A stretch of DNA of 64,000 nucleotides from Thermoanaerobaculaceae bacterium (GTDB taxonomy: Bacteria > Acidobacteriota > Thermoanaerobaculia > Thermoanaerobaculales > Thermoanaerobaculaceae), in the NCBI GenBank assembly GCA_963754345.1, contig CAVWFZ010000002.1:13392-77391 (forward strand). Reading direction: 5' to 3'. Position 1 is the first letter of the stretch. Each line of letters opens with the position of its first letter. Position numbers and translations under genes: made by a program. The notes under the pieces are model-generated. The model was not told the DNA's origin. It worked only from the letters and a program-made list of their open reading frames with translations, and made no database searches. Positions 1,456 to 63,459 of this stretch are shown piece after piece.

Positions 1456-2481
1456 GTGGCTATGGCCAAACTTGACACCAATCTCGACGCGTGCCGTCTC
1501 TCGAGCGAAATCCTGCTGCGCCTCCGCAAGATCCTGCGCGAGGCCCTGAATTCCCTGTACGGCAAGAACTGGGAGGAGGCCGGGATTCCGGTCGAGATCC
1601 GGGACTTTCTCGTCCAGCGCCAGGCGAGAGAGGCCAGCATCAACTGGAACCTCAGCGACACCATCGACGTGCTTGACTTTGCCGGCTTCCTCAACCTCTA
1701 CGAAGTCATCGCCGCCAACGAGTTTCTCGTGCAGCGTTTCCTCCCGCTCGCCCCCGATCCGAGCGTGCTGCGGATCCGCTTCCTCGAGCTCGACACGATC
1801 CTCAACCGCATCGCCTACGCCAGGCCGATCTCGGAGGGCGACCTCGGCTTCCTCGTGAGCTTCGACGAACGGCTCAGGAAGACTTCCACCGCCGCAGCGA
1901 CGCCCGAGGAAGTTGCCGCCGCGAAAGCGAGACCTCCGAAGGCCGTGGTTGCGCCCCCACTGCCGGCCGAAGTGTTTACCGCCCCGCCGCCAAAGCCCGC
2001 GGCTCCCGAGCCGAAACCGGCTGCCCCGGAAGCCAGGCAGGCTCCGCCCCCTCCACCGCCACCACGCCCCGAGCCCGAGCCGGCGCCTGCGCCGGCCGTT
2101 GAGGCGCTCCCACCGGCGCCCGGCGCACCAGAGTTCGGGCCCAAGGAGCTCGAAGCGGCGCTCAAGCGCGCCAACGACAAGACGATCCTCGCGGCCCTGT
2201 ACCAGGAGGTCACGGCGCTCGCCGACGGTCTGTGGAACGGCTCGATCCAGGCCCAGCAGGCCAAGACCTGGGAGAAGGTGCGCGAGTCGCAGTGGTACCA
2301 CGACCGTTTCGCCAAGCTGGGCCTGAAGCCGATCTCGGACTTCTTCGGCCTCTTCGAGACCGCCAAGGAGAAGATGCTCTCCGGGACCTCCAAGAACGAC
2401 CTCCAGGAGTTCCTCAAGGAGCACAACTTCGTGCAGGTGCTGCTGGCGCTCAAGTCCCTTTTCAAAGCTCAGAAGGGTTAG
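1456..2481 (+). CDS. Hypothetical protein with a helical N-domain, a Pro/Ala-rich linker ([18 protein letters not shown]) and a conserved C-domain
   Basis: Clean 341-aa ORF with coding-like composition. It sits 3 nt after the previous stop, so it is probably co-transcribed with the Lon-N protein. No confident family assignment. Confidence 0.5.
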   Translation: MAMAKLDTNLDACRLSSEILLRLRKILREALNSLYGKNWEEAGIPVEIRDFLVQRQAREASINWNLSDTIDVLDFAGFLNLYEVIAANEFLVQRFLPLAPDPSVLRIRFLELDTILNRIAYARPISEGDLGFLVSFDERLRKTSTAAATPEEVAAAKARPPKAVVAPPLPAEVFTAPPPKPAAPEPKPAAPEARQAPPPPPPPRPEPEPAPAPAVEALPPAPGAPEFGPKELEAALKRANDKTILAALYQEVTALADGLWNGSIQAQQAKTWEKVRESQWYHDRFAKLGLKPISDFFGLFETAKEKMLSGTSKNDLQEFLKEHNFVQVLLALKSLFKAQKG

Positions 2482-2575
2482 CTTCCGGCACCCTTTCGCG
2501 CCGCCGCATCGCCCGGAGCTACGGCTTGACCCCGTCCAACAGTCTTCCTTCCGAAAACTTTCTTTCATTTCCTTC

Positions 2576-3120
2576 TTTTTGCCCCGCGGGCTGGGAGCAG
2601 TCGCTCGGGCTGCGCATCGAGCGCAGCCCTCCGACCCGCCTCCGCGTGCGACCGAGCAGCGGTGCTCACCGTGGGGCCCCTCGGCGTTCGGGCTGCGCCC
2701 GCCGCCGACACCCCACGGCGATTCGCCGCGCTCGGTTCCCGCGCGCTTCGGCGTGATGGCTCCTGTCGCCCGCGGTGCGGATTTCACCCCCACCCCCCTA
2801 CAGCGCGGGGCGCAACGGGCGGGGGGCGTTCAATCCGCCGGTGCCGCGGGTGGCCAATCCCTCCGAAGCCTGCGGGTACCGGACGCGCGAGCCGCGTTGG
2901 GGAGACGGCGGTGCCGCCTCACGCGAACGCCGAGGGGCCCCGACGCGGATCACGCATTCCGGTCGCAGGCGGAGGAATGTGCGGCCGCAGCGGCTGGGGA
3001 GACGCAAGGCCGCACCCAGCCACCCGCGGGACCGGCACAAACAAGAAGCCGTCACGCAGTGACAAGACAAAGCCGGCCGCGCACCCACGGGGCAACAGAA
3101 ACCCCACGGCAGTGGAAAGG
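2576..3120. repeat. Copy A of a dispersed GC-rich intergenic repeat family (about 545 nt)
   Basis: It starts at TTTTGCCCCGCGGGCTGGGAGCAGTCGCTCGGGCTGCGCATCGAGCGCAGCCC; 83 nt are identical to 27172-27255. The core GGGGGCGTTCAATCCGCCGGTGCCGCGGGTGGCCAATCCCTCCGAAGCC recurs at 27497-27545 and inverted at 63064-63112. The 3' module GCCACCCGCGGGACCGGCACAAACAAGAAGCCGTCACGCAGTGACAAG is shared with 27700-27755, 30446-30490 and 63340-63390. Confidence 0.65.
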
Positions 3121-3126
3121 TGAGCT

Positions 3127-4929
3127 TTAAGGTTTGCGGGCGAGAACCACGAAGTCGCGCGGACCCGAGAGCCAGGCGTCAAGCCGGCCCGCCAGCTCGC
3201 GCACCGCCTCCGGCTGGGAAGGCTTGGCGAGCGCCTGCTCAGGGGGGAACGGCCGCAGCAGCTCCTTCTCGACGACCTTGAGGCCGAGCGCCTTCATCAC
3301 GAACTCAAGCGCCTGCGGATGAACCGGCACCCGGTGAGTGGGGTCCATCCAGAAGAGCCCCGCCCCGACACGCAGCGAATCCGGGTTCGGACACTCGACC
3401 AGCAACAGCCCGCCGGATCGCAACGCCGCCGCGGCGGCCTCGACCACCGACATCCAGGTGGCCGCTTGGAGGTGCTCGAAGACGTGGATGCAGGTGACCG
3501 CGCCAAGGCTTCCTGGTGTGCGATCGCGCAGCGTGGCGAGGGCATCACCCACGTCCGCGGAAAGGCCCAGCCGCCGGCACGCGGCGACCATCGCCGGGTC
3601 GCTGTCCACACCCTGCGCCTCGACCCCGGCGTCGCGGAGCGCCTCCAGGAGCTCCCCGCGGCCGCAGCCGAGGTCCAGCACCGGGCCGGCGCCCGCCAGC
3701 CACGGCACGTAGTCGGCGACGCGCCCGAGGATCTCGGCGCGCTGCCCGCGGAAACTGTCCACGAAACGTCTGGATGCGGCGGCGATCGCGCGCGGGACCT
3801 CGGCCTCGACCGCGGGCTCGACCGAGACCTTCAACGGCTCGTCCTGGGCGATGCGCTCGACGAGCCCGCCGAGCGCGGTGAGGTCCTCGTGGAGAGCATC
3901 CACCAGTGCGTCGGTACGCGCCGCCAGGGCAGGCAGCCGCGCGTCCCGCAGCTCTTCGCCGAGCGCCTGAATCGCGCCCATGACCTTCTGGAGGGCCTCC
4001 ACGGCCCCCTGCAGGCTCAGCAGGTCCTTCTCCACGCGAGGCACGTGTTCGTCGCGCAGCGACTCCAGCTCCCTCTGCTGCGCCTCGGAAGCATTCTGCA
4101 GGCGCAGCAGGTCCTTCTCGACGTGTGGCACGTGCCCGTCTCGCAGCGACTCCAGCTCCTTCTGGATCACCTCGGAGGACCCCTGGAGACGGGCGAGCGC
4201 CTGTTCGGACTGGGGCAGCCGCCGGTCCCGCACCGCTTCCACCTCGCGCTGGATGGTCCCCGCCGTCTCGCTCATGCGATCGACGCGGGCGGAAAGCTCC
4301 GGGAGGGCCCGGTCCCGCACCGCCTCCACCTCGCGCTGGATGGTCCCCGCCGTCTCGCTCATGCGGTCGAGGCGAGCCGACAGCTCTGGGAGGGCGCGGT
4401 CCCGCACCGCCTCCACCTCGCGCTGGATGGTCCCTGCCGTCTCGCTCATGCGGTCGAGGCGAGCCGACAGCTCGGGGATGGTCTGGTCGCGCGCCTGTTC
4501 GAACTCGCCGCGTGTGGCGAGGTAGGCGCTCCGGACGTCCTCGATCACTCCCAGCGTCTGGTCGAGCCTTGTCTCCAGGTGCCGCTGCAGATCCTGGAGG
4601 GCGGCCGACTCGCGCTGCACGTCGGCGGCCAGGGCTGCACCAGCCGCCTCCGTCTCGCTAAACCTCTGTTCGAGCGTTTCCCGCTCCTGCTGGCGTCTGG
4701 CGAGGTCGTGCGCGAGCGTGGCCATGCCCTGATCAAGCCTCGCCATCCCCTGATCGAGCCTGGCCGTGCCCTGATCGAGCCTGCCAAGGTCCTGCCCCAG
4801 GGAGTCCAGCTCGGGGCCGATTGTGCTGAGCACGATGCGCCGCGCCAGGCGCATCAGCCACCCCCGCGGCCTGCCTGCCGGCCGCTCGCTGGGGGACTGT
4901 GCCCCACCCGCGGGGGGATGGCCGCTCAC
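3127..4929 (-). CDS. Coiled-coil protein fused to a class I SAM-dependent methyltransferase domain
   Basis: The C-terminal half has VLDLGCGRGELLEAL (motif I) and a methyltransferase fold. The N-terminal half is heptad-like coiled coil with three perfect 29-aa repeats. It starts 7 nt after the rplI stop, so the true start may be an internal Met (MRLARRIV). Confidence 0.6.
   Translation of the reverse strand: MSGHPPAGGAQSPSERPAGRPRGWLMRLARRIVLSTIGPELDSLGQDLGRLDQGTARLDQGMARLDQGMATLAHDLARRQQERETLEQRFSETEAAGAALAADVQRESAALQDLQRHLETRLDQTLGVIEDVRSAYLATRGEFEQARDQTIPELSARLDRMSETAGTIQREVEAVRDRALPELSARLDRMSETAGTIQREVEAVRDRALPELSARVDRMSETAGTIQREVEAVRDRRLPQSEQALARLQGSSEVIQKELESLRDGHVPHVEKDLLRLQNASEAQQRELESLRDEHVPRVEKDLLSLQGAVEALQKVMGAIQALGEELRDARLPALAARTDALVDALHEDLTALGGLVERIAQDEPLKVSVEPAVEAEVPRAIAAASRRFVDSFRGQRAEILGRVADYVPWLAGAGPVLDLGCGRGELLEALRDAGVEAQGVDSDPAMVAACRRLGLSADVGDALATLRDRTPGSLGAVTCIHVFEHLQAATWMSVVEAAAAALRSGGLLLVECPNPDSLRVGAGLFWMDPTHRVPVHPQALEFVMKALGLKVVEKELLRPFPPEQALAKPSQPEAVRELAGRLDAWLSGPRDFVVLARKP
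4222..4485. repeat. Three tandem 87-bp coding repeats (29 aa each, LPELSARLDRMSETAGTIQREVEAVRDRA) inside the methyltransferase gene
   Basis: Period-87 near-identity is visible directly at 4222, 4309 and 4396. Confidence 0.85.
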
Positions 4930-7000: not shown

Positions 7001-7302
7001 GTCGTCTCCTTTCGGCCTTCGGCCCCCGCTTCGAGGCGGGAGCAAGGGGTCCGCCATGCCCGGCGGAGGGTGTATTTTACTGGAAGCCCTGAAAAAGGCA
7101 AGCCCACGCGGTGAAACGTGCGCGAAGTGACTCCCCATTGCCCTGAGCGGTGGAACTGAACACGAGGGACGGCAGGCCCACGTCCGGCAGCGACCGGCCA
7201 CTGGGCGCCTTCGTTCGTAGTGACCGCCCGCCGGGCGGCTGCTCGCGGTCAAGCCGCGGATGAGATGTGGGGCGCGACCGCCGGGCGCGCGGAGGCCTCG
7301 TA

Positions 7303-10026: not shown

Positions 10027-10101
10027 TGGCTGGGGCGGCAGGACTCGAACCTGCACATGCGGGATCCAAAGTCCCGTGGCTTACCATTTGCCGACGCCCC
10101 A
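10027..10101 (-). tRNA. tRNA-Gln (anticodon UUG), 75 nt including an encoded CCA
   Basis: The reverse complement reads TGGGGCG...CGGGA-CTTTGGA-TCCCG...GGTTCGAGTCC...CGCCCCAG-CCA. It has a 7-bp acceptor stem, anticodon loop CUUUGGA and discriminator G. Confidence 0.85.
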
Positions 10102-27037: not shown

Positions 27038-27114
27038 GCCCCTCCCAGGGAGGTGGAGTCTACCTCCCAATGGCCCACCCCTCAAGCCAGCCTGTTCTTA
27101 CTGCACTCCGTGCA

Positions 27115-27760
27115 CGTTTCTTGCCCCGCGGGCTCGGATCGGCACTTTGTTCCTTCAACAGCGTTGCACTCTTTTTGCCCCGCGGGCTGGGAGCAGTCGC
27201 TCGGGCTGCGCATCGAGCGCAGCCCTCCGACCCGCCTTCGCGTGCGACCGAGCTGGCACAGACCGGCGTGCGGACCCTCGCTGTTCCTCGCCCTCGCGCT
27301 GCGCGCTCGTGTTCGGCCAGCGTTTCCACCCGCCGGTCTGGCCGCTCGGTGCCCGCACGCTCCGCCGGAATGGCTCCTATCGCCCGCGGGGCGGATTTCA
27401 CCTCCACCCCCCCGGTTCCCTGTGCACCTGCACGCACCTGATGCTCTTGCCAGGACTCTCGCCCCATTGGCACAGCCACCGCGTTACGGGAGGGGGACTT
27501 TCAATCCGCCGGTGCCGCGGGCGGCCTATCTCTCCGGAGCCCGTGGGCACCACGCGGTGGGATCCGGCGTGAGGTATCGGTGGCGCGAGGAGCCCAGGTT
27601 TGTGGCGACGAGCGAACACCGAGGAGCCTCGCGACGGGCCCGCCAGGCGTGGTCGCGGGCGGAGGAGTGTGCGGCCGCAGGCCGCGGGGGCGGCCAAGGC
27701 CGCAGGTTTAGCCACCCGTGGGACCGGCAACACAAAGCCACGCAGTGAAAGGGAGAGGCC
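27115..27760. repeat. Copy B of the dispersed repeat family (about 645 nt), in the divergent ffh / secreted-protein intergenic region
   Basis: The 5' motif TTGCCCCGCGGGCT occurs twice (27121, 27176). 83 nt match copy A. The core GGGGGACTTTCAATCCGCCGGTGCCGCGGGCGGCCTATCTCTCCGGAGCC and the 3' module GCCACCCGTGGGACCGGCAACACAAAGCCACGCAGTGAAAGGG are present. Confidence 0.65.
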
Positions 27761-27874
27761 GGCCGCGAATTCCGTCGTCTCTGGCGCCACTGGCATGGCC
27801 TGCCCCCCTTGACGCCCACCCCTCGCGCCTTAGATTGGACCCAAGAGATCGAATTTGGTCCCTTGGAGGCGAAG

Positions 27875-28789
27875 ATGTGGCTTCTCCCCCGCCTTGTCGC
27901 GGCAGTCGCCGTAGGCGCCCTGGCGACCAACGCCTCTGCGGCCGGAGCAGCCGTTGCCGGCCGCCGGTTGTCAGATATCGAGATCCCACCGGGAACCTCG
28001 GTCGGTGCCAACGGGAAGGGTGAGATCGGGTTCCTCCTCGCCGAGGAACACCGTCTTTGTTGGTGGGCCCCCGATGGCGGGTTTCGCCGCTGTCTCGAGA
28101 TCCCCGGAGTCCGGCCGGCTCATGTGCCTCTTGCGCTTTGCGGACGGGCGAACAGGTTCTTGGCGTGTTTCGGGGACCGCTCTGGACCGCCCAAGCGATG
28201 CACCGTGGTGGACACGACGCGAGCAAGAATCGTTGGCGCCTTCGCTGTCGAGGATTGGCCCGGGCCCACCTTTGCAGGGGCCAACGGCTGGGTTGTAGCT
28301 CTGATCGCGCACGAGAAGGGGCCAGTGGGTTTTCGGGAACTCAGCGACGCTGGCCGGACCATCCGCGAGTTCCCCTTGCCCGCTACTTGGGAAGCGGCTG
28401 TACACGCCGCAGGGCCGGCATTCCCGTTGTGGTTCCCGCGCGTGTTCTCCATTGAGGGGGAACTCTGGGGCATACCTGCAGGGCACTATGGCTTTTGGAA
28501 GCTGAACGAACGGAGAGCAGGTGAGGTGAAGGTCCCACCGGGGCTGGCCGTGACCGACCATAACCTCGATGTCACTTCGTCTTCCCCTCTGGTGCAGGAA
28601 CGTCTGGCGGACATGCCGGCCGCAATGCGTGAGCGCACGCTTGGTGGCGGCAACACAGCTCCACGGCGGGGTTCAGCAGCCGTCCACATCAGTGCTATTC
28701 GCGACGTCGCTGCCTTTGGGAAAAGAGTAGGCGTACTCGCGGTGGTGGATCCAGAAGCTATGGACGGTGGCTGCAGACTAGATGTCTGA
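27875..28789 (+). CDS. Secreted hypothetical protein, paralog 1
   Basis: ATG at 27875 after GGAGGCGAAG, with a putative promoter TTGACG...TAGATT upstream. Signal peptide MWLLPRLVAAVAVGALATNASAAGA. Shares the motif ELWGIPAGHYGFWKL with the 29004 gene (EVWFIPNAKYELWRL). Confidence 0.5.
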   Translation: MWLLPRLVAAVAVGALATNASAAGAAVAGRRLSDIEIPPGTSVGANGKGEIGFLLAEEHRLCWWAPDGGFRRCLEIPGVRPAHVPLALCGRANRFLACFGDRSGPPKRCTVVDTTRARIVGAFAVEDWPGPTFAGANGWVVALIAHEKGPVGFRELSDAGRTIREFPLPATWEAAVHAAGPAFPLWFPRVFSIEGELWGIPAGHYGFWKLNERRAGEVKVPPGLAVTDHNLDVTSSSPLVQERLADMPAAMRERTLGGGNTAPRRGSAAVHISAIRDVAAFGKRVGVLAVVDPEAMDGGCRLDV

Positions 28790-29003
28790 CTACTACTACA
28801 CGCAGGACAGCGGGTACTGCATGATTCGCTCATGGACCTGCATCGGCGACGGCAGCGGAAGCAACGAGTACTGCTATTGAGACGTCTGGTCTGCGCCCGG
28901 CGGCGGTAATGGCCTGTGCGCCGACCGCCGCCGGGACCTGAATCCGCGGCCGCGCCATGGCAAGCCGTTGGATAATGACAGTACGGGCTGATTCTGACTG
29001 GAG

Positions 29004-30245
29004 TTGAACATGCGTTGGCTTCGGAGTGCCCAGTTGCTCATCTTCAGCGGCTTGGCCGTCATCATGATCTCTGGGCCAGCCACTGCCGAGGAAGACACCG
29101 CTCCCCTCGAGCGCGCCCACACTTCTAGCGCGTGGCTCGTGGCCCGGGACGGGCTCGGTAGGGTAGGAGTCTGGGACAAGGACACCGGGTGGGTGCGGGT
29201 TTGGAAGGCGGACGGGAGCCTCGCAGCGCAGTGCAGGGTGACCGACCTGCGCGTGGGGAACTTTCCGTCCCAACTCGCCATCCGTGGTGACAGGGCGTTG
29301 TTGAAGTCGAACGACCCGCCGCCCGGAGACCGCAAGAAGCAGCGTGCCCTCGTGGTAGACCTTGACTCGTGTGAGGTGCTCCACGATTTCACGCTGGGCG
29401 GTGTTGCGCTGTCCCTTGAACCCTCGGACTCGGCATGGCTGCTCGTCCTCAACGAGACGCTGCTGGTGTCCGACACGTACAAGCTGGTGGAGATCGATGA
29501 TGAGGGCGGCACGGTTCGGACCTTCGAGTATGACCAACCGGCCCGCCAGCTCGTGCGAGAGATGAAGCTGGATGACCTCAGCGGCCCGATGAACGGGCGA
29601 CTGGTGGCAGTCCGCCAGGAAGTCTGGTTCATTCCGAATGCAAAGTACGAGCTGTGGCGATTGCCCCAAAGGGGGCTTCCCCTGCGGCGAGTCGAGGTGC
29701 CGGAGTGCCTGGCGGCGAAGGGCCGGCGCATCACCGGAGACGAGAACGTCCGCCTCTATCAGGAGATGCTCAAGGACGAATCCGAAGCCAGTCGCAAGTT
29801 CTGGATGAAGGGAAAGATGCGCGATTCGTTCTGGCCCGCAGCCACGTCCGCGGCGGCGTATGAGCGTCTCCTCGCGGTGGCGGTCAGGGACGGCAAGCTC
29901 GGTGGTGAAGAGCGTTTGGACATCTGGGACATGACGACCGAGTCCCTGGTGGCAATCGCGAAGGTGCCGACAGGGACGTGGCTCGTTTCGCTCGGCCCCG
30001 ACCATGCCTGGCTGCTCCGCGGCGCGAAAACCTTCGAGAGGCTGGCGCTGCCAGACCTCACGGTGCCGCTGGACGATCCGTGCAAGACCTACGCGGCATT
30101 GGTCGAGAGCGCGAGCGACAAACCCAACTCCAAGACACCAATCGCGGTGGTCAAGGAGAACGGGACGGGAGCCTCAACCCAGCCGACACCGACGCCAGGA
30201 CCGCAAGCCCCATCCCATAATCTCGGCTTTCACATCTCACCATAA
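29004..30245 (+). CDS. Secreted hypothetical protein, paralog 2
   Basis: Signal peptide MRWLRSAQLLIFSGLAVIMISGPATA. Lower GC than the flanks. Similar motifs and order to the 27875 gene. The overlapping minus-strand ORF 28830-30005 is Arg/His/Pro-rich noise. Confidence 0.5.
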   Translation: MNMRWLRSAQLLIFSGLAVIMISGPATAEEDTAPLERAHTSSAWLVARDGLGRVGVWDKDTGWVRVWKADGSLAAQCRVTDLRVGNFPSQLAIRGDRALLKSNDPPPGDRKKQRALVVDLDSCEVLHDFTLGGVALSLEPSDSAWLLVLNETLLVSDTYKLVEIDDEGGTVRTFEYDQPARQLVREMKLDDLSGPMNGRLVAVRQEVWFIPNAKYELWRLPQRGLPLRRVEVPECLAAKGRRITGDENVRLYQEMLKDESEASRKFWMKGKMRDSFWPAATSAAAYERLLAVAVRDGKLGGEERLDIWDMTTESLVAIAKVPTGTWLVSLGPDHAWLLRGAKTFERLALPDLTVPLDDPCKTYAALVESASDKPNSKTPIAVVKENGTGASTQPTPTPGPQAPSHNLGFHISP

Positions 30246-30329
30246 ATATCGCGAGTGATTGCCGCCAGGTCACCAACTGGTAGTACGTCCCAGCATCGGG
30301 GACGCACCACGGAGGGAAACCATCGCAGC

Positions 30330-30495
30330 CCAAACCCCGCAACCCGCAGGCGGGCGATGCCGAGGGGTCCGCACGGTGAGCACGGCTGTTCCGCCGTACA
30401 CAGGGTCTCTCGCGCAGGCGTCGCGAGCGAAGCGAGCGCGCGAAGCCACCCCCGGGCAAACAAAAGAGGTGCCACGCAGCTGAAAAAAGATACCG
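30330..30495. repeat. Partial or degenerate copy of the dispersed repeat family (3' module)
   Basis: TCGCGCAGGCGTCGCGAGCGAAGCGAGCGCGCGAAGCCACCCCCGGGCAAACAAAAGAGGTGCCACGCAGCTGAAAAAAG aligns with 63290-63390 and with the 3' modules of copies A and B. Confidence 0.45.
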
Positions 30496-30644
30496 CTCCC
30501 AGCGCGCTGGGCAAAAGCGAGCCACGGAGTGGCAAAGTAAGCAAAATCCGGATCCAGAGGCGAAGAGCAAGCACCCAAAGACGTTGCGGATGGGGGACCG
30601 GAAACAGCTCTGGTGAACAAACCGGCTCCGGGAGAAGGCGTAGA

Positions 30645-31214: not shown

Positions 31215-32786
31215 ATGCTCCCGTTCAGTCTTTCCCTCGTTCCGGTCCTTCTGGTCCTGGCCGCGCTGGTGGTCCTGGTCGTCTTCATGACCGCGGTGCG
31301 CAACTACATCAAGGTGCCGCCCAACAAGGTAGCGGTGTTCTTCGGGCGAAAGCACAGGACACCCGACGGGGCGACGGTCGGCTTCCGCCTGATCACCGGG
31401 GGCGCCTCGCTCAGGTGGCCGATCTTCGAGAGCGTCTCCTACCTCGACCTCAACATCTTCTCGATCGACCTGGACGTACGGGACGTGCCCAACAAGGACG
31501 GCGTGCTCGTTTCCGTTCAGGCTGTCGCCAACGTCAAGATCCGCAGCGACGAGGTGTCCCTGACCGCGGCGGCCGAGCGCTTCCTCAGCCGCAGCACCGA
31601 CGATATCAAGCAGATGGCCTACAAGAACCTCGAGGGCCACCTGCGCTCGATCGTCGGCCGCCTCACGGTCGAGGAGATCGTTCGCGACCGCGCCAAGTTC
31701 AACCAGGAGGTGCTCACCGAGGCGGCCGCCGACCTCGCCAAGATCGGGCTCGGCGTGGACGTGCTGACCATCCAGAAGGTCTCCGACGCCGAGGGCTATA
31801 TCGAGGCGCTGGGCAAGAAGCGCACCGCCGAGGTCAAGCGCGACGCCCAGATCGGTGAGGCCCTCGCCGCCCGCGAGGCCACGATTCAGTCCACCACCGC
31901 GCTGCGCGAGGGAAAGGAGACGGAGAACCAGAACCTCGCACTCGTGGCCCAGGCCGAGAAGGAGCGCGACGTTCGCAAGGCCCAGTACCAGGCCGAGGTG
32001 CAGGCGCAGCAGGCGCGCTCGCAGCAGGCCGGGCCGCTCTCCGAGGCCAAGGCCAGGCAGGAGGTGGTTGCCCAGGAGGTCCAGGTCGAGGTGATCCACA
32101 CGCTCAAGCAGACCGAGGTCGCCGAGGCCGCGGCCCTGCAGCGCGAGAAGGCCCTCCTCGCCGAGGTCGTCAAGCCCGCCGAGGCCCAGAAGGTCCAGAC
32201 CATCCTGCAGGCCGAGGCCGCCAAGCAACGCGAGATCCTCGAGGCCGAGGGCCACAGGACCGCGGTCGTCACCGTCGCCGACGCCGAGAAGCAGCGCCTT
32301 GCCCTCGAAGGCACGGGCGCCGCCGACGCCCTGCGGGCGAAGCTGCTCGCCGAGGCCGAGGGCAACAAAGCCAAGCTGCTCGCCGAGGCGGAAGGCAACA
32401 AGGCCAAGTTGCTCGCCGAGGCGGAAGGCATCAAGGCCAAGCTGCTCGCCGAGGCCGAGGGCGCCCTCAAGAAGGCGCAGGCGTTCGCGAAGATCGACGA
32501 GGGCGCCCGCACCATGCTCGTGCTCGAGCGCCTGCCCGACATGATCAAGGCGTTCGCGCCGGTGGCGGGGGCGGTGGCGGCGCCGATGGGCAACATCGAC
32601 AAGGTGATCATGATCGACGGCGGCGGCGAGGGCTCCTCGACCCTCAAGCGCTACGCCGACACCGTTCCCTCCACGATGTTCAGCGTGCTGCAGACCGCCC
32701 AGGCCCTCGGGCTCGACATCTCCGGCCTGCTGAAGAAGCTCGGGGTACAGGAGGTCAAAGAGGGCGGCGGCAAGGTGTCGGAGTAG
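31215..32786 (+). CDS. Flotillin-like SPFH/Band-7 protein
   Basis: N-terminal TM, an SPFH domain, then long Ala/Glu/Gln-rich coiled coil with KLLAEAEGNKA repeats. Typical FloT/YuaG architecture. Confidence 0.85.
   Translation: MLPFSLSLVPVLLVLAALVVLVVFMTAVRNYIKVPPNKVAVFFGRKHRTPDGATVGFRLITGGASLRWPIFESVSYLDLNIFSIDLDVRDVPNKDGVLVSVQAVANVKIRSDEVSLTAAAERFLSRSTDDIKQMAYKNLEGHLRSIVGRLTVEEIVRDRAKFNQEVLTEAAADLAKIGLGVDVLTIQKVSDAEGYIEALGKKRTAEVKRDAQIGEALAAREATIQSTTALREGKETENQNLALVAQAEKERDVRKAQYQAEVQAQQARSQQAGPLSEAKARQEVVAQEVQVEVIHTLKQTEVAEAAALQREKALLAEVVKPAEAQKVQTILQAEAAKQREILEAEGHRTAVVTVADAEKQRLALEGTGAADALRAKLLAEAEGNKAKLLAEAEGNKAKLLAEAEGIKAKLLAEAEGALKKAQAFAKIDEGARTMLVLERLPDMIKAFAPVAGAVAAPMGNIDKVIMIDGGGEGSSTLKRYADTVPSTMFSVLQTAQALGLDISGLLKKLGVQEVKEGGGKVSE
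32340..32465. repeat. About 3.8 tandem 33-bp coding repeats (KLLAEAEGNKA) inside flotillin
   Basis: Period-33 repetition of AAGCTGCTCGCCGAGGCCGAGGGCAACAAAGCC is visible directly. Confidence 0.8.
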
Positions 32787-34804: not shown

Positions 34805-34860
34805 ACGAACGCTCCCTTCAAACCGCCGAACGACGCGCCGGCGCCGCCCAGGGGCGAGTA

Positions 34861-34897
34861 GATCAGACGTCGCGGTAGCGGCGGAGCTGCTCGGCCA
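34861..34897. repeat. Orphan duplicate of the Lon-like gene's last 11 codons; the left member of a direct-repeat pair with 39121-39157
   Basis: ATCAGACGTCGCGGTAGCGGCGGAGCTGCTCGGCCA here versus ATCAAACCTCGCGGTAGCGGCGCAGCTGCTCGGCCA at 39121. The reverse complement encodes AEQLRRYRDV* versus AEQLRRYREV*. Similarity extends about 15 nt further upstream. Confidence 0.65.
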
Positions 34898-34943
34898 CCA
34901 CTTTCAGGCGACTTGGCCTGCCCAGGCACAGGTGGTCCCGTGA

Positions 34944-35804
34944 TCAACGCCTGAAGACGGTGTAGCCCGTCGAGGCCTGCCATTCCGAAACCGCTGAGTA
35001 GAGCCGCGTCTGGCGGAAGTACGCAAACTCGAACGCTAGACGCAGCGATTGTTCTACTCTCTCGGGCGTAACCGTTGCGGCCGAGTTAGTCCCGAGGGTC
35101 CGCCGAAGTCCAATAGCGAGAACGTTGGCGATGTCGTGGCCGCAGCAAATCTGCCACGGATCGTGATTCCATCCGACTTCCGCGCCCAACGCAGTGAGCA
35201 GGTCTCTGGTCTTCAGATCATGCCTCTGCGAGTGGTCCTTAACTTCAGCGACGAGGCGGCCTGTTTCGCAGCGGAGATACGGCCTGTCGAGGATGAACCG
35301 CGACAAGTGCAGTCCTTCAAATCTAAGCCGAAGATCGCCGCGGCGTGAGATATGCCTCAAGTGGCCTAGGGGGAGGGCGGCGAAGATGATCGCCTCGCGA
35401 TGGCTCTTTTGTGCCAGAACGGCGTGCACCTTGAGTTTCTCGACCGATCCCAACTCAGCGAGGACGCGGTCCAGCGCAGGCGACGCAACGATCATCGTTT
35501 CCAGGTCATGCGTGTCTGTGTGAAAGAGTGACGGGAGCGCGGGAATATCGTTGTCGACTACGGAAAAGTCTGCGTCGATGATGCCAAGGACACCTTCGAC
35601 ATTGGCGCGCGTGAGGATCGATAGAGCTCTGGTTAATACCTCCCGGTTGTGAGAAGGGAGCAGTACGCACTCACCCTCGACAGTGAAGGCACCCAAGCAC
35701 TTTGCGTCCGCAGGTCCCTCGACAAGGAGGATTGATCCAGCGTGAACATCGCGCAGCAAGCGCACCGTCGCCACGAGAGCGTCTGGCGAGACGCATTCGA
35801 TCAT
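34944..35804 (-). CDS. DUF4435 / OLD-family Toprim-like protein (AriB-like)
   Basis: Toprim-like Glu (LLVEGPAD) and DxD (GIIDADFS). The ATG overlaps the upstream ATPase stop as ATGA. Lower GC. Confidence 0.55.
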   Translation of the reverse strand: MIECVSPDALVATVRLLRDVHAGSILLVEGPADAKCLGAFTVEGECVLLPSHNREVLTRALSILTRANVEGVLGIIDADFSVVDNDIPALPSLFHTDTHDLETMIVASPALDRVLAELGSVEKLKVHAVLAQKSHREAIIFAALPLGHLRHISRRGDLRLRFEGLHLSRFILDRPYLRCETGRLVAEVKDHSQRHDLKTRDLLTALGAEVGWNHDPWQICCGHDIANVLAIGLRRTLGTNSAATVTPERVEQSLRLAFEFAYFRQTRLYSAVSEWQASTGYTVFRR

Positions 35805-37132: not shown

Positions 37133-37304
37133 GAGAGGCTCCTGTTCTGTGGCGCGGCTCTGGCAAACAGCCTAAGTCAATGCAATCGTATCCTCTTTAT
37201 AGCTGGTGCGAAAGCGCTGTCGCGCAGGGGACGCTTGGCGAACGACCGATCGGCGGTCTGCCGCTCATCTGGCTGTCCGAGCCAAAGCCAAGCTCACGGC
37301 GCCG

Positions 37305-37655: not shown

Positions 37656-37891
37656 GCCTCACGGCCCTGTGGAGCGCCTGTCGAAACCTCGCCGTGCAGG
37701 TTTGTCTTGCGGACCCTCGCGAGGAGTTCCGACAGGCGAACCACTCGCCGGGAGGCCGGCGCAATGACGAGCTTCCCCTCGTGCACCGTCAGTTCCACCT
37801 GGGCATTCGGCTGCAGGCCCACCTCCGAGGCGAAAGGCTTCGGAATGCGCACCGCGAGACTGTTTCCCCATTTCTGGACCCGGGCAACCAT
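37649..37891 (-). CDS. mazE: MazE/AbrB-type (SpoVT/AbrB) antitoxin
   Basis: ATG at 37891 after GGGGAGG (MVARVQKWGNSLAVRIPKPFASEVGL). A putative promoter TTGACG-17-TATCTT lies at 37916-37944. Confidence 0.7.
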   Translation of the reverse strand: MVARVQKWGNSLAVRIPKPFASEVGLQPNAQVELTVHEGKLVIAPASRRVVRLSELLARVRKTNLHGEVSTGAPQGREAW

Positions 37892-38869: not shown

Positions 38870-39115
38870 GTCATTCCCCCGAAGGCGGCGGGGACACATC
38901 GCGTGGGTGGGGAAAACACGCCCCTCGGGTGAAGCGGCGATCTCTCCGGAGGCCGCGGGGACCCAGCGCACGGATCGGCGCCGGGAGACGCGGGCGGCCG
39001 CAGGCCGAACCGCGAGGGTCACGGCGGCGAGGCGCGCCGCTGGGTCGCGGCCGAAGGAGTCTCGGGCCGCGGCGCGTCGGGACGCGCAAGGCCCAAGGCC
39101 CCGCTTCACCCGAGG
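38870..39115. repeat. Degenerate copy of the dispersed repeat family abutting the 3' end of the Lon-like gene
   Basis: GGTCATTCCCCCGAAGGCGGCGGGG matches copy C GGTGATTCCGCCCGAAGGGTGGCG. GGCGATCTCTCCGGAGGCCGCGGGG matches the core CCTATCTCTCCGGAGCC. The tail GCGCAAGGCCCAAGGCCCC...GGGGCAAATCAAAC matches the 3' modules. Confidence 0.35.
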
Positions 39116-39121
39116 GGCAAA

Positions 39122-41506
39122 TCAAACCTCGCGGTAGCGGCGCAGCTGCTCGGCCATCTCTGCCAGGCGCGCGGCGCAGCGCCCGAAGATGCTGCCCTCC
39201 GGGTAGTTCCCGTCGGCATCACGCACGCCGGCCGGCATGCCCATCAGCAGCTCGACCCCCTCCTCGATGCGCGAAACCGGGTAGATGTGGAAGCCGCCCC
39301 ACTCCACCGCCGCCGCCACCTCGGGGTCGAGCTGCAGGTCGGCGACGTTGGACTCCGGGATCAGCACCCCGTGCGTGCCCGAGAGGCCGCGCTGCGAGCA
39401 GAGGGAAAAGAACCCCTCGATCTTCTCGTTGACGCCGCCGATCGCCTGGATGCGCCCGGTCTGGTCGACCGAACCGGTCACCGCCAGGTCCTGCCGGATC
39501 GGGATCCCCGAGAGCGCCGAGAGGATCGCATACACCTCCGTGGAGGAGGCGCTGTCACCCTCGACGCCGCCGTACGACTGTTCCAGGGCGATCGACGCGG
39601 TCATCGAGAGTGGAACCTCGGACGCGAACGTGCCGCGCAGGAAGCCGGACAGGATCAGCACGCCCTTGGTGTGGATGTTGCCGGAGAGGCTCGCCTCGCG
39701 CTCGATGTTGACCACGCCCTCGCGGCCGAGTGAGACCCGTGCCGTCACGCGGCCCGGCAGGCCGAAGGCGTGGTAGCCGAGGTCGTAGACGGTGAGGCCG
39801 TTCACCTGCCCGACCACCACGCCCTCGGTCGGGATCACGAGCACGTCGTCCAGCATAAATGACGCGAGTTTCTCCTCGGGCAGGGAGTGGCGGTCGCGCC
39901 GCGCCCGCACCGCGGCGTGGATGTGCTCGGTGCCGACGATCTTCTTCCGCGTGCCGCCCGCCAGGAACGCGGCTTCGCGCAGGATGTCGGCGACGTCCGA
40001 GAACCGGGCCGAGATGCGCCTGCGGTTGCGCGCCAGCCTCACCGCCTCCTCTACCAACGCCGCCATGCCGCCGCGGTCGAGGTGGGGCAGCTTCTCGTCG
40101 CGGATGATCTTGGCCATGAGGGCGAGGAAGTCGGCCACCTGCTCGCGCCCGTTCGGCATCTCGCTGTCGAAGTCCGAGAGCACCTTGAAGATCTTGCAGA
40201 ACTCCTCGTCGGCCTCGTGCAGAAGGTCGTAGAGGGCGCGGTCCCCGATCATCATCATCTTGACGTCGAGGTCCACGGGCTCCGGCTGCAGCGCATGGCC
40301 GGACATCGCGAAGAGGATGTCGCGCGAGCGGATGACGACCCGCCGGTAGCGCAGCGCGCGCTTGAGCGCGGGCCACACGCCGGCCTCCGAGACCGCATCG
40401 AAGGCGTTGACGACCAGGAAGCCACCGTTTGCCCGCAGCAGCGACCCGGCGCGGATGCGCATGTGGTCGGAGGTGGAGTGGAAGTTTTGCGCCAGCCGGG
40501 CCTCGATGGTACCGAAGAGGTTGCCGTAGGAAGGCTCCGTCTCGATGATGATCGGGCGCCCCTTGGTGCCGCCGTTGTCCACCACGACGTTGACCCGGTA
40601 GCGTAGCAGCGGGTCGCCGTCCTCGCCGCCGTCCTGCGCGCCGAAGAGCTCCACGTGGTCCAGCATGTCCTGGCGCAGCTCGTCGAGGTAGCGGGTGACG
40701 CGGGGATCCTTGACCGCCCGCGTCACCTGGCCGAGGGACTGCTTCAGGAACGGCTCCAGCGTGTCGCGCCGAAGCTTCTCCGCGCGCGTGACCATCTCCT
40801 CCCGGATCGTCGTAACCTCGTGGAAGACCCGCTGCAGCTCCTCCGAGAGCTTGCCGTGGGCCTGCTCGATGGTGCCGGCCTTCTCGCGGTCGAACTTCCC
40901 CTCTTCGGCGAGGCTCTGGACCTTGTCGAGGGTCACCGGCCGTTCCTCGACCACCGGCAGGATCTCCGGCCGCGTGACCGAACCCACCTGCACCTGCACG
41001 AGCGTGAAACCGGCCTCCCGCACCTTGTGCTCGAAGCTCTTGATCAGCTCCTGCTGCTTTGATTTGAGGTCCTCGAGGGTCAGCTCCAGCCGCTGCTGGA
41101 ACTCCTCACCCTCGAACATGGTGGGCAGCCCCTTGGCCATGTCGCGCAGCAGCTTGTCGAGGCGTTCGCGGAGGACTGCGCCGCGCCCTGCGGCGAGGCG
41201 CAGCAGACGCGGCTGCTCGGGGCGCGCGAAGTTGTACACGAACAGCAGGTCGTCGGGAGCTTCACCCTTGTCTGCCAACGGCCGCATGTGCAGCTCGATG
41301 GCGGTCATCCGTCCGGTGCCGGTGAGACCGGTCACGAACACGTTGAAGCCGAGCGACTGCACCGAGAGGCCGAATTCGAGGGCACGCACCGCGCGCGCCT
41401 GCCCGATGATTCCCTGTGAGGGCTCGATCTTCGAGGTCGAGTCGGCCGGGAGCCATTCCTCCGGGCAATGCCACCGCAGCTCGTTTGCAGCCAGCTCTCG
41501 AGCCAC
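39122..41506 (-). CDS. Lon-like ATP-dependent protease (AAA+ ATPase plus Lon C-terminal S16 protease domain; COG1067-type)
   Basis: AAA+ Walker A VFVTGLTGTGR and a C-terminal Lon proteolytic domain (GPSAG-like Ser, Lys dyad region). The likely GTG start at 41506 after GGAGGTG avoids overlap with the MMPL gene. Confidence 0.8.
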   Translation of the reverse strand: MARELAANELRWHCPEEWLPADSTSKIEPSQGIIGQARAVRALEFGLSVQSLGFNVFVTGLTGTGRMTAIELHMRPLADKGEAPDDLLFVYNFARPEQPRLLRLAAGRGAVLRERLDKLLRDMAKGLPTMFEGEEFQQRLELTLEDLKSKQQELIKSFEHKVREAGFTLVQVQVGSVTRPEILPVVEERPVTLDKVQSLAEEGKFDREKAGTIEQAHGKLSEELQRVFHEVTTIREEMVTRAEKLRRDTLEPFLKQSLGQVTRAVKDPRVTRYLDELRQDMLDHVELFGAQDGGEDGDPLLRYRVNVVVDNGGTKGRPIIIETEPSYGNLFGTIEARLAQNFHSTSDHMRIRAGSLLRANGGFLVVNAFDAVSEAGVWPALKRALRYRRVVIRSRDILFAMSGHALQPEPVDLDVKMMMIGDRALYDLLHEADEEFCKIFKVLSDFDSEMPNGREQVADFLALMAKIIRDEKLPHLDRGGMAALVEEAVRLARNRRRISARFSDVADILREAAFLAGGTRKKIVGTEHIHAAVRARRDRHSLPEEKLASFMLDDVLVIPTEGVVVGQVNGLTVYDLGYHAFGLPGRVTARVSLGREGVVNIEREASLSGNIHTKGVLILSGFLRGTFASEVPLSMTASIALEQSYGGVEGDSASSTEVYAILSALSGIPIRQDLAVTGSVDQTGRIQAIGGVNEKIEGFFSLCSQRGLSGTHGVLIPESNVADLQLDPEVAAAVEWGGFHIYPVSRIEEGVELLMGMPAGVRDADGNYPEGSIFGRCAARLAEMAEQLRRYREV

Positions 41507-62805: not shown

Positions 62806-63046
62806 CTCCCGAGCTGGCCCCCTCCGGGCCGGCGCCGCTCACGCACACCATACGCCAGGCCGGAGCCGGAGTTCGCGGTTCTCCGGTCAACGGCGGTGCC
62901 TCACCGGTGAACAGCGGCAGATCGGTCCTTCCTGGGGCCGCTCCCCGAATCCCCCTTCTTCTTTTCTGGTGCACCGGCTCACAGCGCTTTGGTGTTTCTT
63001 GATCTGCGTGGCAGCGTTTTCATTTCCTCGGGGGTGACGACGCATT

Positions 63047-63400
63047 CTGTTTTGCCCCGCGGGCTTCGGAGAGATAGGCCACCCGCGGCACCGGCGGATC
63101 AAAAAGCCCCCTCCCGCAGCGCGAGACGAGGAGGGCAACCTCATCGCGCACCGGGTGGGTGGGGGTGATTCCGCCCGAAGGGTGGCGAAGCCATCGCGCT
63201 GGAGCGAGCGGGGTCCCCGACGCGCTGGCCGGCATGGGGAGACGGCGGCGGCGCTTCATGCGAACGCCGAGGGGCCCTGTGCCGGGCAGCGCTGTCGGGT
63301 CGCTCGCGCAGGCGTCACGAGTCCTGCCAACGGCAGGATGAGTGAGCGAAGCCACCCCCGGGCAAGAAAGCCCAACGCAGTTGAAAGAAGATTCCACTCC
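63047..63400. repeat. Copy C of the dispersed repeat family, with the core motif in inverted orientation, next to the ahcY 3' end
   Basis: TTTTGCCCCGCGGGCT is followed directly by TCGGAGAGATAGGCCACCCGCGGCACCGGCGGATCAAAAAGCCCCCTCCCG, the reverse complement of the core seen in A and B. The middle aligns with A (GGGGAGACGGCGG.G.CGC.TCA.GCGAACGCCGAGGGGCCC). The 3' module GCCACCCCCGGGCAAGAAAGCCCAACGCAGTTGAAAG is present. Confidence 0.6.
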
Positions 63401-63459
63401 GAACCCGTGGACCAACGGGCGGAGAGAAAGAAAGGTTGGGGGCGGCGCCCCAGAGAGCC

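What the first reader, a model, noticed from the sequence alone, without database searches (positions are those of the whole stretch)
2576..3120. Previously uncharacterised GC-rich dispersed repeat family, five or more copies in 64 kb, all intergenic, with conserved cores and palindromes
Five regions share long non-coding homology: 2576-3120, 27115-27760, 30330-30495, 38870-39115 and 63047-63400, with a possible weak sixth at about 7040-7160. Three copies start with a T-run followed by the palindrome-containing GCCCCGCGGGCT, followed in copies A and B by a perfect hairpin GGGCTGCGC-ATCGA-GCGCAGCCC. All contain a core of about 50 nt (GGGGGNNTTCAATCCGCCGGTGCCGCGGGYGGCCWATCYCTCCGRAGCC). Most contain a 3' module (GCCACCCNNGGG...CAANACAAAG..CACGCAGTGAAAGG). 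The 5' end (CCCCGCGGGCT) is complementary to a sequence just after the core (AGCCTGCGGGTAC), so a long-range stem could close the element. Copies lie at gene 3' ends (methyltransferase, Lon-like, ahcY), in divergent promoter regions (ffh), and at the edges of the low-GC accessory segments. There is no transposase, RT or Cas gene nearby. Candidate explanations are a MITE-like non-autonomous element, a family of structured ncRNAs, or recombination or integration hot-spots that seed accessory gene gain. A family with this motif does not match any RNA or repeat family I recognise.
Basis: seen in the sequence. Interest (0 to 1): 0.85.

Follow-up and report, generated by a model that had tools for sequence, protein, structure and literature searches.

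The report
Palindromic intergenic repeat family in Acidobacteriota
The window carries five real copies or fragments of a roughly 500-650 bp non-coding, hairpin-forming repeat that occurs dozens of times per genome in Thermoanaerobaculaceae-type Acidobacteriota; it looks like an undescribed member of the familiar class of miniature, non-autonomous palindromic repeats rather than a new kind of system.

Summary
Copies A (2541-3122), B (27098-27769) and E (63040-63415, opposite orientation) are full or nearly full. C (30330-30535) and D (38876-39127) are fragments, and about 7085-7118 holds one solo end module. The family is non-coding and matches nothing in Rfam. A 23-nt core occurs at 74 loci in 8 Acidobacteriota/Thermoanaerobaculaceae MAGs, 37 of them in one MAG.

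Each element has about 45-nt inverted terminal modules enclosing two adjacent long hairpins. Pairing is strongly maintained: 97.5% of cells paired and 47 of 123 pairs compensatory. Both strands fold equally well, which points to DNA-level palindromy rather than a strand-specific RNA.

Copies sit at the same sites in different species, yet positional orthologues are seldom each other's closest relatives, so copies exchange sequence. They are enriched between convergent genes. They also accumulate foreign DNA: a 2.7-kb two-gene insertion splits B from C relative to a 99%-identical strain.

No transposase with matching ends was found. RayT-like Y1 transposases occur in these genomes and abut two copies, but their inverted repeats differ from the family's.

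Verdict: a MITE/REPIN/BIME-like selfish repeat family, a new member of a known kind. The mobilising enzyme is unknown.

The parts
2541..3122 (+). Copy A, a full element between convergent genes. It has a degenerate T-rich 5' end, a left hairpin domain, an apex, the core, a right hairpin domain and two tandem 3' terminal modules.
   Evidence: It is also present at the orthologous site of MAG JBGQAK01 (L040).
2607..2629 (.). Perfect 9-bp hairpin with an invariant ATCGA loop (GGGCTGCGC-ATCGA-GCGCAGCCC) in copy A. The same hairpin is at 27203-27225 in copy B.
   Evidence: Across the family the stem changes by compensatory substitutions while the loop is kept (helix 3).
2833..2855 (+). 23-nt core of copy A (ATCCGCCGGTGCCGCGGGTGGCC). 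It pairs with the inner part of the 3' module (GCCACCCGCGGGACCGGC, about 3019-3036).
   Evidence: helix 9: 16 pairs, 98% paired.
3019..3120 (+). Two tandem 3' terminal modules of copy A. Each is a GC palindrome, then an A-rich linker, then the CACGCAGTG / CACGGCAGTG mini-palindrome. Read on the minus strand they look like weak hairpin-plus-T-tract terminators directly downstream of the methyltransferase gene.
27098..27769 (+). Copy B, a full element upstream of ffh. It has an extra 5' module at 27098-27140 and its core is at 27504-27526. It ends with 3' module 1 and the left half of the palindrome of module 2.
   Evidence: The interior 27414-27769 is only 80% identical to strain L077, against 99% in the flanks.
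27770..30502 (+). A 2.7-kb segment absent from the 99%-identical strain L077. It holds two paralogous secreted-protein ORFs (27876-28789 and 29010-30245, no Pfam match) and then fragment C. It is inserted exactly at gcgaa^cgcgctggg, inside the palindrome of the second 3' module.
30330..30535 (+). Copy C, a right-arm fragment with two 3' terminal modules and no core. It forms the right end of the inserted segment together with the resident half-module.
38876..39127 (-). Copy D, a self-complementary variant unit bounded by CCTCGGGTGAAGCGG ... CCGCTTCACCCGAGG. It lies inside the low-GC island, next to the 3' end of the LonB-like gene.
   Evidence: The same unit type is joined to the orthologue of copy A in L040.
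63040..63415 (-). Copy E, in the opposite orientation, between the 3' end of ahcY and the 5' end of the liaF-like gene. The core is at 63077-63099 on the minus strand. The right domain is missing and the core is closed directly by a terminal box.
   Evidence: It is conserved in strain L083 at 99.5% identity.
7085..7118 (+). Solo terminal module (GCCC..GAAAAAGGCAAGCC-CACGCGGTGAAAC).

Best explanation
These are copies of a lineage-specific, non-coding, non-autonomous repeat family of Thermoanaerobaculaceae-type Acidobacteriota. It is MITE/REPIN/BIME-like palindromic selfish DNA.

A full element is 500-650 bp. It is built from four units of about 130 nt in alternating orientation, which form two adjacent long hairpins. 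It is capped at both ends by inverted terminal modules of about 45 nt. Each module holds a mini-palindrome TCCAC-TGC-GTGGA, a T-rich (outer strand) or A-rich linker, and a CCCGCGGG-type GC palindrome.

Shown here:
- The elements are dispersed, intergenic and present at dozens of copies per genome in at least 8 species.
- Hairpin complementarity is actively maintained, and equally so on both strands.
- Copies stay at the same sites across species, while their sequences are exchanged among copies.
- Copies accumulate at gene 3' ends.
- Copies are sites where other DNA is inserted or swapped.

Inferred:
- The elements spread, or once spread, through a trans-acting enzyme that recognises the terminal or hairpin structures on DNA. 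A hairpin-recognising Y1 (RayT-like) transposase is the leading candidate but is unproven.
- Copies are now homogenised mainly by ectopic recombination or gene conversion and by intra-palindrome template switching.
- Their effects on the host are by-products. These include portable homology for gain and loss of accessory genes, weak terminator-like ends, and landing pads for insertion sequences.
For: Repeat family and distribution:
- The copies in the window are related.
- 76 loci carry the exact 23-nt core; 74 of them lie in 8 Acidobacteriota/Thermoanaerobaculaceae MAGs, 37 of those in one MAG, and the other 2 are chance hits in Actinomycetota.
- The family was not found in viral contigs or in the plasmid collection searched.

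Non-coding nature:
- No ORF with a coding signature runs through the elements.
- No recurrent neighbouring protein family was seen.

Anatomy:
- Inverted terminal modules and their boundaries.
- Half-elements and solo modules occur on their own.

Structure:
- Copy A folds with z = -7.3 on the plus strand and -7.4 on the minus strand.
- In the 41-copy alignment, 97.5% of cells are paired against 91% in shuffles, and 47 pairs carry double changes against 23.9 expected. None of 500 shuffles reached these values, and slid controls gave about 42% paired.
- Strand symmetry: 981 G-T against 1054 A-C mismatches, and alifold energies of -169.7 against -171.4 kcal/mol.

Dynamics:
- At least 14 cross-species locus pairs carry an element at the same site.
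- Positional orthologues rank only 13th to 50th among each other's matches, whereas paralogues reach 94-98% identity.
- Orthologous copies differ by block indels and unit swaps.
- Filled and empty sites were seen.

Context:
- 18 of 41 elements lie between convergent genes against 36 of 199 background intergenic regions, p = 0.0008.

Insertions into copies:
- The 2.7-kb segment in the window.
- An IS1595-family element in L034.
- A miniature TIR-flanked Y1 derivative in L056.
Against: - No target-site duplication could be defined. The filled/empty comparisons available are too diverged, and element flanks are often further modules.
- No autonomous partner with matching ends was found in about 600 kb of flanking sequence.
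- The RayT-like Y1 genes found in these genomes carry unrelated inverted repeats, GGTGCCAGGTACGCAAGTAGC. A close homologue sits at a single fixed locus with no family elements nearby.
- Long positional persistence and very strong maintenance of pairing, including a hairpin with an invariant loop and compensated stem, would also fit a host-selected function.
- The centre of copy A is 94.7% identical to its orthologue although the flanking genes are only about 85% identical. This could reflect either constraint or recent conversion.
Confidence: 0.62

Rival explanations
1. The terminal modules are dedicated site-specific recombination sites, functionally like integron attC sites or plasmid pdif sites. 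Gene cassettes that carry one module or half-element are inserted next to resident modules, or excised from them, by a structure-recognising recombinase or Y1 enzyme.
For: - The 2.7-kb segment in the window ends with its own half-element and 3' module. It is inserted right after a resident module: the junction lies 22 nt after CACGCAGTG on the left and 20 nt after CACGCAGCTG on the right, within the palindrome of the next module. The cassette is therefore bracketed by direct module repeats.
- Copy D sits at the end of a defence/toxin-antitoxin island.
- In relatives, the homologous cassette lies next to a TIR-flanked Y1 transposase gene.
- Y1 remnants abut elements in L056 and L044.
Against: - There is only one clear insertion event.
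- In the same comparison the interior of B is also replaced (80% against 99% identity). This fits ordinary homologous exchange that uses the repeats as flanking homology.
- No integrase, Xer-type site or recombinase is linked to the elements.
- The island around D is bracketed by a duplicated 3' end of the lon gene, not by modules.
- Most copies carry no cassette.
Confidence: 0.12
2. The elements have been taken over by the host as functional DNA or RNA signals at gene ends. Examples would be bidirectional transcription terminators, mRNA 3'-end stabilisers, or binding sites for a nucleoid or topology protein, as proposed for REP/BIME elements.
For: - The elements are enriched between convergent genes.
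- The terminal mini-palindrome plus T-tract scores as terminator-like and faces inward from both ends, directly after the stop codon of the methyltransferase gene.
- Positions are conserved across species.
- Pairing is strongly maintained.
Against: - The terminator-like stems are short (5-7 pairs, 3 of them G-C), and their count is not above that of shuffled sequence.
- Copies also lie in divergent and tandem intergenic regions, and some orthologous sites are empty.
- Enrichment at 3' ends is equally expected from selection against insertions into promoters.
- The element interiors are mosaic and rich in indels.
Confidence: 0.12
3. The copies encode a family of large structured non-coding RNAs, acting in cis or in trans.
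For: - The structure is large, thermodynamically stable and supported by covariation.
- The core is conserved in 8 species.
- The centre of copy A is more conserved than its flanking genes.
Against: - Both strands fold equally well and G-T is not in excess over A-C.
- There is no Rfam match even at E = 1.
- No conserved promoter or terminator defines a transcript.
- Copy number is high, orientation relative to genes varies (E is inverted), and truncated copies are frequent.
Confidence: 0.07
4. The repeats are assembly artefacts, from chimeric or collapsed contigs.
For: Many short-read contigs end inside the repeats.
Against: - Independent assemblies from different studies and samples carry the same elements at the same loci, with unique flanks on both sides. 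Examples are L040 and L083; L077 has an intact family element at the B site, although its interior differs from B. L002, L005 and L048 are a further set.
- Copies differ from one another by 6-35%.
Confidence: 0.01

Closest known systems
REPINs / REP sequences mobilised by RAYT (REP-associated tyrosine transposases), as in Pseudomonas and Enterobacteria
   Same: Both are intergenic, non-coding, inverted doublets that fold into hairpins, with tens to hundreds of copies. Both persist for long periods at fixed sites and include singletons that are remnants of doublets. In both cases the mobilising enzyme acts in trans. RayT-like Y1 transposase genes are present in the genomes that carry this family.
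   Different: These elements are 5-6 times larger than REPINs: units of about 130 nt and elements of 500-650 nt, against 20-40 nt REPs and REPINs of about 100 nt. No GTAG or CGTC tag sits at the hairpin foot. The Y1 genes found are flanked by unrelated inverted repeats, not by family modules.
BIMEs (bacterial interspersed mosaic elements) of E. coli
   Same: Both are mosaic arrays of palindromic units in alternating orientation joined by conserved linkers. Composition varies from copy to copy, and both are preferentially located at gene 3' ends.
   Different: The unit size and the sequences differ. Binding of IHF, gyrase or Pol I has not been tested here.
Bacterial MITEs such as Correia/NEMIS (Neisseria), ERIC/IRU (enterobacteria), RUP (pneumococcus) and Nezha (cyanobacteria)
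   Same: Both have terminal inverted repeats, no coding capacity, a length of 100-600 bp, the potential to form a whole-length hairpin, dispersed intergenic copies, and possible terminator or promoter side-effects.
   Different: No target-site duplication and no parent insertion sequence with matching ends could be identified. Positions are unusually stable between species.
TIR repeat families associated with TIRYT/TIRtron Y1 transposases (Di Nocera et al. 2013, PMC3733652), including Acidobacteria such as Koribacter
   Same: The phylum is the same. TIR-flanked Y1 transposase genes (TIRtrons) exist in these MAGs, together with a miniature derivative (L056 2923-3117). Two family copies physically abut TIRtron remnants.
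   Different: The TIRtron inverted repeat (GGTGCCAGGTACGCAAGTAGCTGAAG) does not resemble the family's terminal modules and is not dispersed in the sequence sampled.
Integron attC sites and pdif modules
   Same: Both are imperfect palindromes found at the boundaries of accessory gene cassettes, and the cassette is bracketed by repeat units.
   Different: There is no linked integrase or Xer-type site. These elements are far larger, and most copies carry no cassette.

Membership tests
[quoted passage not shown] | Short (under about 600-700 bp), non-coding and multicopy | tested here: met
   Elements are 500-650 bp with no coding signature. There are 74 core-bearing loci in 8 MAGs.
[quoted passage not shown] | Terminal inverted repeats | tested here: met
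   The ends are about 45-nt inverted modules: TTCACTGCGTGAGGCC-TCTTG..GCC..CCGCGGG at one end and CCCGCGGG..GGC-AAGAA-GGCCTCACGCAGTGAA at the other.
[quoted passage not shown] | Target-site duplication flanking the element | tested here: inconclusive
   Flanks are often other modules. The only filled/empty pairs come from genomes about 75-78% identical, too diverged to place the junctions.
[quoted passage not shown] | An autonomous insertion sequence with the same ends in the same or related genomes | tested here: not met
   No ORF-containing element is bounded by family modules in about 600 kb. The one candidate, in L034, is an unrelated IS1595-family element with its own inverted repeats. 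Sampling covers only a small fraction of each genome.
REPIN / REP-RAYT system | Two inverted REP units that form a hairpin | tested here: met
   Inverted units form long hairpins with compensatory changes. The units are about 130 nt rather than 20-40 nt.
REPIN / REP-RAYT system | A conserved GTAG (or CGTC) tetranucleotide at the foot of the REP hairpin | tested here: not met
   The conserved end motif is CACTGCGTG / CACGCAGTG, about 20 nt from the GC palindrome. The module consensus has no GTAG or CGTC tag.
REPIN / REP-RAYT system | A single-copy RAYT gene flanked by the same repeats | tested here: not met
   RayT-like Y1 genes were found in L056, L099-L102 and L105-L114. They are flanked by a different inverted repeat and not by family modules. 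Other Y1 paralogues exist (L101, NF047646 at 80.9 bits) whose flanks could not be examined.
Any described RNA family (Rfam 15) | A covariance-model match | tested here: not met
   There was no hit at gathering thresholds across the window other than a tRNA. There was no hit at E <= 1 on copy A.
Strand-specific structured RNA | Pairing better on one strand, with G-U tolerated and A-C not | tested here: not met
   G-T 981 against A-C 1054. Alifold gave -169.7 against -171.4 kcal/mol for the two strands.
Integron attC-like or Xer-site cassette system | A linked integrase or recombinase and conserved recombination core sites | tested here: not met
   No recombinase was found among the flanking ORFs scanned or among recurrent neighbours. 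Only one cassette-like insertion was seen.
Intrinsic terminator | A GC-rich stem followed by a U-tract at gene 3' ends | tested here: inconclusive
   The terminal mini-palindrome plus T-tract passes the simple scan, but with short stems and counts no higher than in shuffled sequence. Transcript 3' ends cannot be tested here.

The most novel reading that the evidence does not exclude
The elements could be giant REPIN-like replicators, or hairpin-marked recombination modules, that a structure-recognising Y1 (RayT-like) enzyme of Thermoanaerobaculaceae acts on. In that reading, the enzyme or the host uses the terminal modules as fixed entry points for swapping accessory gene cassettes between strains. 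This would be an integron-like cassette system without an integrase.
Probability: 0.12. Interest if true: 0.7.

Novelty: new member of a known kind. Interest (0 to 1): 0.36.

Why it matters
Repeat families of this kind break metagenome assemblies. Many contigs of these uncultured Acidobacteriota end inside the elements, so a profile for the family would help with binning, scaffolding and annotation of Thermoanaerobaculaceae genomes.

Biologically, the family combines three features that make it a useful system for studying how palindromic repeats persist and are homogenised outside the well-studied Proteobacteria:
- long-term positional stability;
- rapid exchange of sequence between copies;
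- very strong maintenance of hairpin complementarity.

The elements also mark places where accessory genes and other mobile elements enter: a two-gene secreted-protein cassette, insertion sequences, and a site next to a defence/toxin-antitoxin island. They are therefore practical signposts for strain-level variation. If a dedicated enzyme acts on the terminal modules, this would extend the REP/RAYT paradigm to much larger elements in a new phylum.

Tried and rejected
1. Coding reading. The conserved sequence upstream of the core in one MAG looked codon-like and could be read as the start of a gene (MSEVLL...). Six-frame ORF and GC3 analysis showed no consistent coding frame. The sequence is one arm of the apex hairpin.

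2. Parent transposase.
- All-against-all clustering of 453 flanking ORFs found no recurrent family.
- A search for ORFs bracketed by inverted modules gave one candidate. It is an IS1595-family element with unrelated ends that has inserted into an element.

3. Link to a RayT/TIRYT Y1 transposase. TIR-flanked Y1 genes were found next to a homologue of the window's cassette, and abutting two family copies. However, their inverted repeat is unrelated to the family modules and is not dispersed. A possible degenerate remnant of that repeat at window 30268-30290 did not survive alignment. A close homologue sits at a single fixed locus with no family elements nearby.

4. Phage or plasmid carriage. None was found. 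The 8 viral matches to the module pattern are chance hits in coding DNA.

5. The single metagenome scan yielded only 4 further copies and no same-species alleles.

6. Look-ups that found nothing. Exact-protein look-ups for genes flanking A, C and D, and one of the two tried for E (the liaF-like gene), found nothing, because of start-codon or strain differences.

7. Invalid calls. and the second protein used an out-of-frame reference and should be ignored.

8. Target-site duplication. The filled/empty comparisons (L072 against L057, and L052 against the window) are too diverged to place the junctions.
Full report
**Observation**

- Sensitive BLASTN aligns copy A (about 2565-3081) with copy B (27170-27767) at 67% identity over 608 nt, E 1e-62.
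- A aligns with E in both orientations, E 6e-31 and 2e-21.
- A aligns with D at E 1e-17.
- C aligns with E at E 6e-12 and with B at E 1e-10.

A profile HMM built from 41 copies, 38 of them from other genomes, recovers A, B, E and D with E-values from 1e-122 to 4e-14.
- the T-run followed by GCCCCGCGGGCT;
- the perfect GGGCTGCGC-ATCGA-GCGCAGCCC hairpin at 2607-2629 and 27203-27225;
- the core;
- the A-rich 3' module ending in CACGCAGTG.

Corrections:
- E lies in the opposite orientation to A and B.
- C is only a right-arm fragment without the core.
- D is a variant self-complementary unit that lacks the first half of the core.
- The 'sixth copy' is a solo terminal module at about 7085-7118.

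None of the copies overlaps an ORF with the GC3 coding signature of this genome.

**Distribution**

An exact-match scan of one genome per species with the 23-nt core returned 76 loci. Of these, 74 lie in eight MAGs labelled Acidobacteriota or Thermoanaerobaculaceae, 37 of them in a single MAG. The other two are chance hits in Actinomycetota.

The window's own genome is not in that collection. Its nearest relative there is MAG JBGQAK01, about 85% identical across the syntenic stretch upstream of copy A. Contigs 97.6-99.8% identical to the window exist in JGI metagenomes.

Several contigs end inside the repeats. Others span them with unique flanks on both sides, so the repeats are real and not chimeras. 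The family was not found in viral contigs or plasmids. It matches nothing in Rfam, even at E = 1.

**Anatomy**

The better-preserved copies in other MAGs show the full design. The element is 500-650 bp.

Both ends carry a module of about 45 nt in inverted orientation. Read inward, each module consists of:
- a short pyrimidine run;
- a mini-palindrome (T)TC(C)AC-TGC-GT(G)GA;
- a T-rich linker;
- a GC palindrome of the CCCGCGGG type.

The interior consists of two adjacent long hairpins. In the right-hand hairpin the 23-nt core pairs with the inner part of the 3' module. The left and right halves are themselves inverted copies of one another (copy A aligns to its own reverse complement at 66% over 495 nt). 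The element is therefore effectively four units of about 130 nt in alternating orientation.

Half-elements, short forms in which the core is closed directly by the 3' module, and solo or tandem extra modules are all common.

**Structure test**

Copy A folds far better than shuffled sequence on both strands, z = -7.3 and -7.4.

On the 41-copy alignment, the consensus structure has 123 pairs.
- 97.5% of cells are paired, against 91% in column shuffles and about 42% when the partners are slid.
- 47 pairs show changes on both sides, against 23.9 ± 2.1 expected.
- None of 500 shuffles reached the observed values.
- Whole hairpin arms occur as alternative, internally complementary versions.
- The 9-bp hairpin keeps its ATCGA loop while its stem changes by compensation.

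This maintenance is symmetric between the strands. G-T and A-C mismatches are equally frequent, 981 against 1054. The reverse-complement alignment folds as well as the forward one, -171.4 against -169.7 kcal/mol. That argues for palindromy maintained at the DNA level. Such maintenance could come from structure-dependent recognition on single-stranded or cruciform DNA, or from correction by template switching and arm-to-arm conversion. It argues against an RNA transcribed from one strand.

**Dynamics**

Copy A is present between the same convergent genes in JBGQAK01. There its centre is 94.7% identical to copy A, although the flanks are about 85% identical. That orthologue also has an 83-nt deletion in the left arm, and its 3' arm is replaced by a D-type unit.

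Three species whose flanks are 93-95% identical share an element at one site. The element itself is only 82-91% identical and differs by block indels.

Overall, at least 14 locus pairs from different MAGs carry an element at the same position. Even so, positional orthologues are rarely each other's best match, ranking 13th to 50th, while copies at unrelated loci reach 94-98% identity. Position is therefore stable while sequence is exchanged among copies.

Gain and loss also occur. One MAG has an element between the pgsA-like and deacetylase genes, where the window (44615-44815) has none. L072 has an element at a site that is empty in L057. These comparisons are too diverged to reveal a target-site duplication.

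Elements are enriched between convergent genes, 18 of 41 against 36 of 199, p = 0.0008. They tend to be depleted between divergent genes.

**Association with accessory DNA**

A contig from the same species, L077, has 99% identical flanks. It carries one intact element between ffh and the nfeD-like/flotillin genes. In the window, that element is interrupted by 2733 bp (27770-30502), inserted at gcgaa^cgcgctggg within the palindrome of the second 3' module.

The inserted DNA holds two paralogous secreted-protein genes with no Pfam match. It ends with fragment C and its own 3' module, so direct module repeats bracket the segment. In the same comparison the interior of B (27414-27769) is only 80% identical to L077. 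The whole tract may therefore have been exchanged by homologous recombination anchored in the repeats.

Copy D lies at the lon-proximal end of a 4.2-kb low-GC island. The island carries a PARIS-like AAA_15/DUF4435 pair and two toxin-antitoxin pairs. It is bracketed by a duplicated 49-nt 3' end of the lon gene rather than by modules.

Other mobile elements also land in copies:
- an IS1595-family element in the A-rich linker of a 3' module (L034);
- a roughly 195-nt miniature derivative of a TIR-flanked Y1 transposase gene (L056).

**Search for the mobilising enzyme**

No protein family recurs next to the elements. No ORF is bracketed by family modules.

Following the cassette gene led to relatives in which the homologous cassette is followed by a TIR-flanked Y1_Tnp gene. 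The same RayT-like gene occurs in the copy-rich MAG (L056). A remnant abuts an element in L044. JGI names its homologues 'REP element-mobilizing transposase RayT', and a paralogue reaches the NCBIfam REP-associated tyrosine transposase cut-off. This echoes the TIRYT/TIRtron systems described in Acidobacteria (PMC3733652).

Against a direct link, the inverted repeat of that gene is unrelated to the family's modules and is not dispersed. A close homologue sits at one fixed locus with no family elements nearby. A Y1 enzyme is therefore a reasonable candidate on general grounds, because such enzymes recognise DNA hairpins. The link is not shown.

**Verdict**

The finding is real and apparently undescribed. 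It belongs to a familiar kind: non-autonomous palindromic intergenic repeats, MITE/REPIN/BIME-like.

The hot-spot idea holds as a consequence of the repeats. The ncRNA idea is disfavoured by the symmetry between strands.

The unusual points are:
- the size and the four-unit, double-hairpin design;
- the very strong maintenance of pairing;
- stable positions combined with sequence turnover.

The mobiliser and any host function remain open.

Noticed in passing
window 34862-39169: A 4.2-kb low-GC island (55-64% G+C). It encodes a PARIS-like pair (AAA_15/AAA_21 ATPase at 35801-37132 and a DUF4435 protein at 34944-35804, both on the minus strand). It also carries a MazF/PemK-like toxin with an AbrB/MazE-like antitoxin (37305-37890) and a HigB/HigA-like pair (38103-38709). 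The island is bracketed by an 86%-identical 49-nt direct repeat of the 3' end of the LonB-like gene (34862-34910 and 39121-39169). This suggests integration into the end of that gene. No integrase was seen.
   Followed up: partly
L056 1-505 and 2923-3117; L044 2526-2640; L099 3690-4320: A RayT-like Y1 transposase gene flanked by roughly 26-nt inverted repeats (GGTGCCAGGTACGCAAGTAGCTGAAG), i.e. a 'TIRtron'. A miniature derivative of about 195 nt (repeat, 36 codons, repeat) abuts a truncated family element in L056. A C-terminal remnant abuts an element in L044. In L099-L102 the gene is internally deleted, has lost its catalytic tyrosine, and lies next to a homologue of the window's cassette.
   Followed up: partly
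L034 about 1555-3545: An IS1595-family insertion sequence with its own inverted repeats (GGCGATTATGCT...TTGACAC) and low-GC passenger ORFs. It is inserted into the A-rich linker of a family element's 3' module, with no clean 8-bp duplication.
   Followed up: partly
window 27876-28789 and 29010-30245: Two paralogous predicted secreted proteins with no Pfam match. Only five homologues (47-57% identity) were found in 5.8 billion proteins; the one that carries an organism name is from Thermoanaerobaculaceae. They always occur in small variable cassettes.
   Followed up: partly
window 3984-4508: Tandem 87-nt (29-codon) repeats inside the N-terminal, coiled-coil-like half of the 600-aa methyltransferase gene on the minus strand.
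   Followed up: no
window 32326-32495: Four to five tandem 33-nt (11-codon) repeats encoding AKLLAEAEG-like units inside the Band_7/flotillin gene.
   Followed up: no
window 34805-34862 compared with L077 about 4600-4868: Synteny with the 97.6-99% identical strain L077 ends immediately upstream of a 68-aa membrane-protein gene. Beyond that point L077 carries unrelated genes (aminotransferase, peptidase S51) instead of the lon region. This is a second strain-level rearrangement, and no repeat module lies at the breakpoint.
   Followed up: partly
window 10030-10101 (minus strand): A single tRNA gene, the only Rfam match in the window.
   Followed up: no
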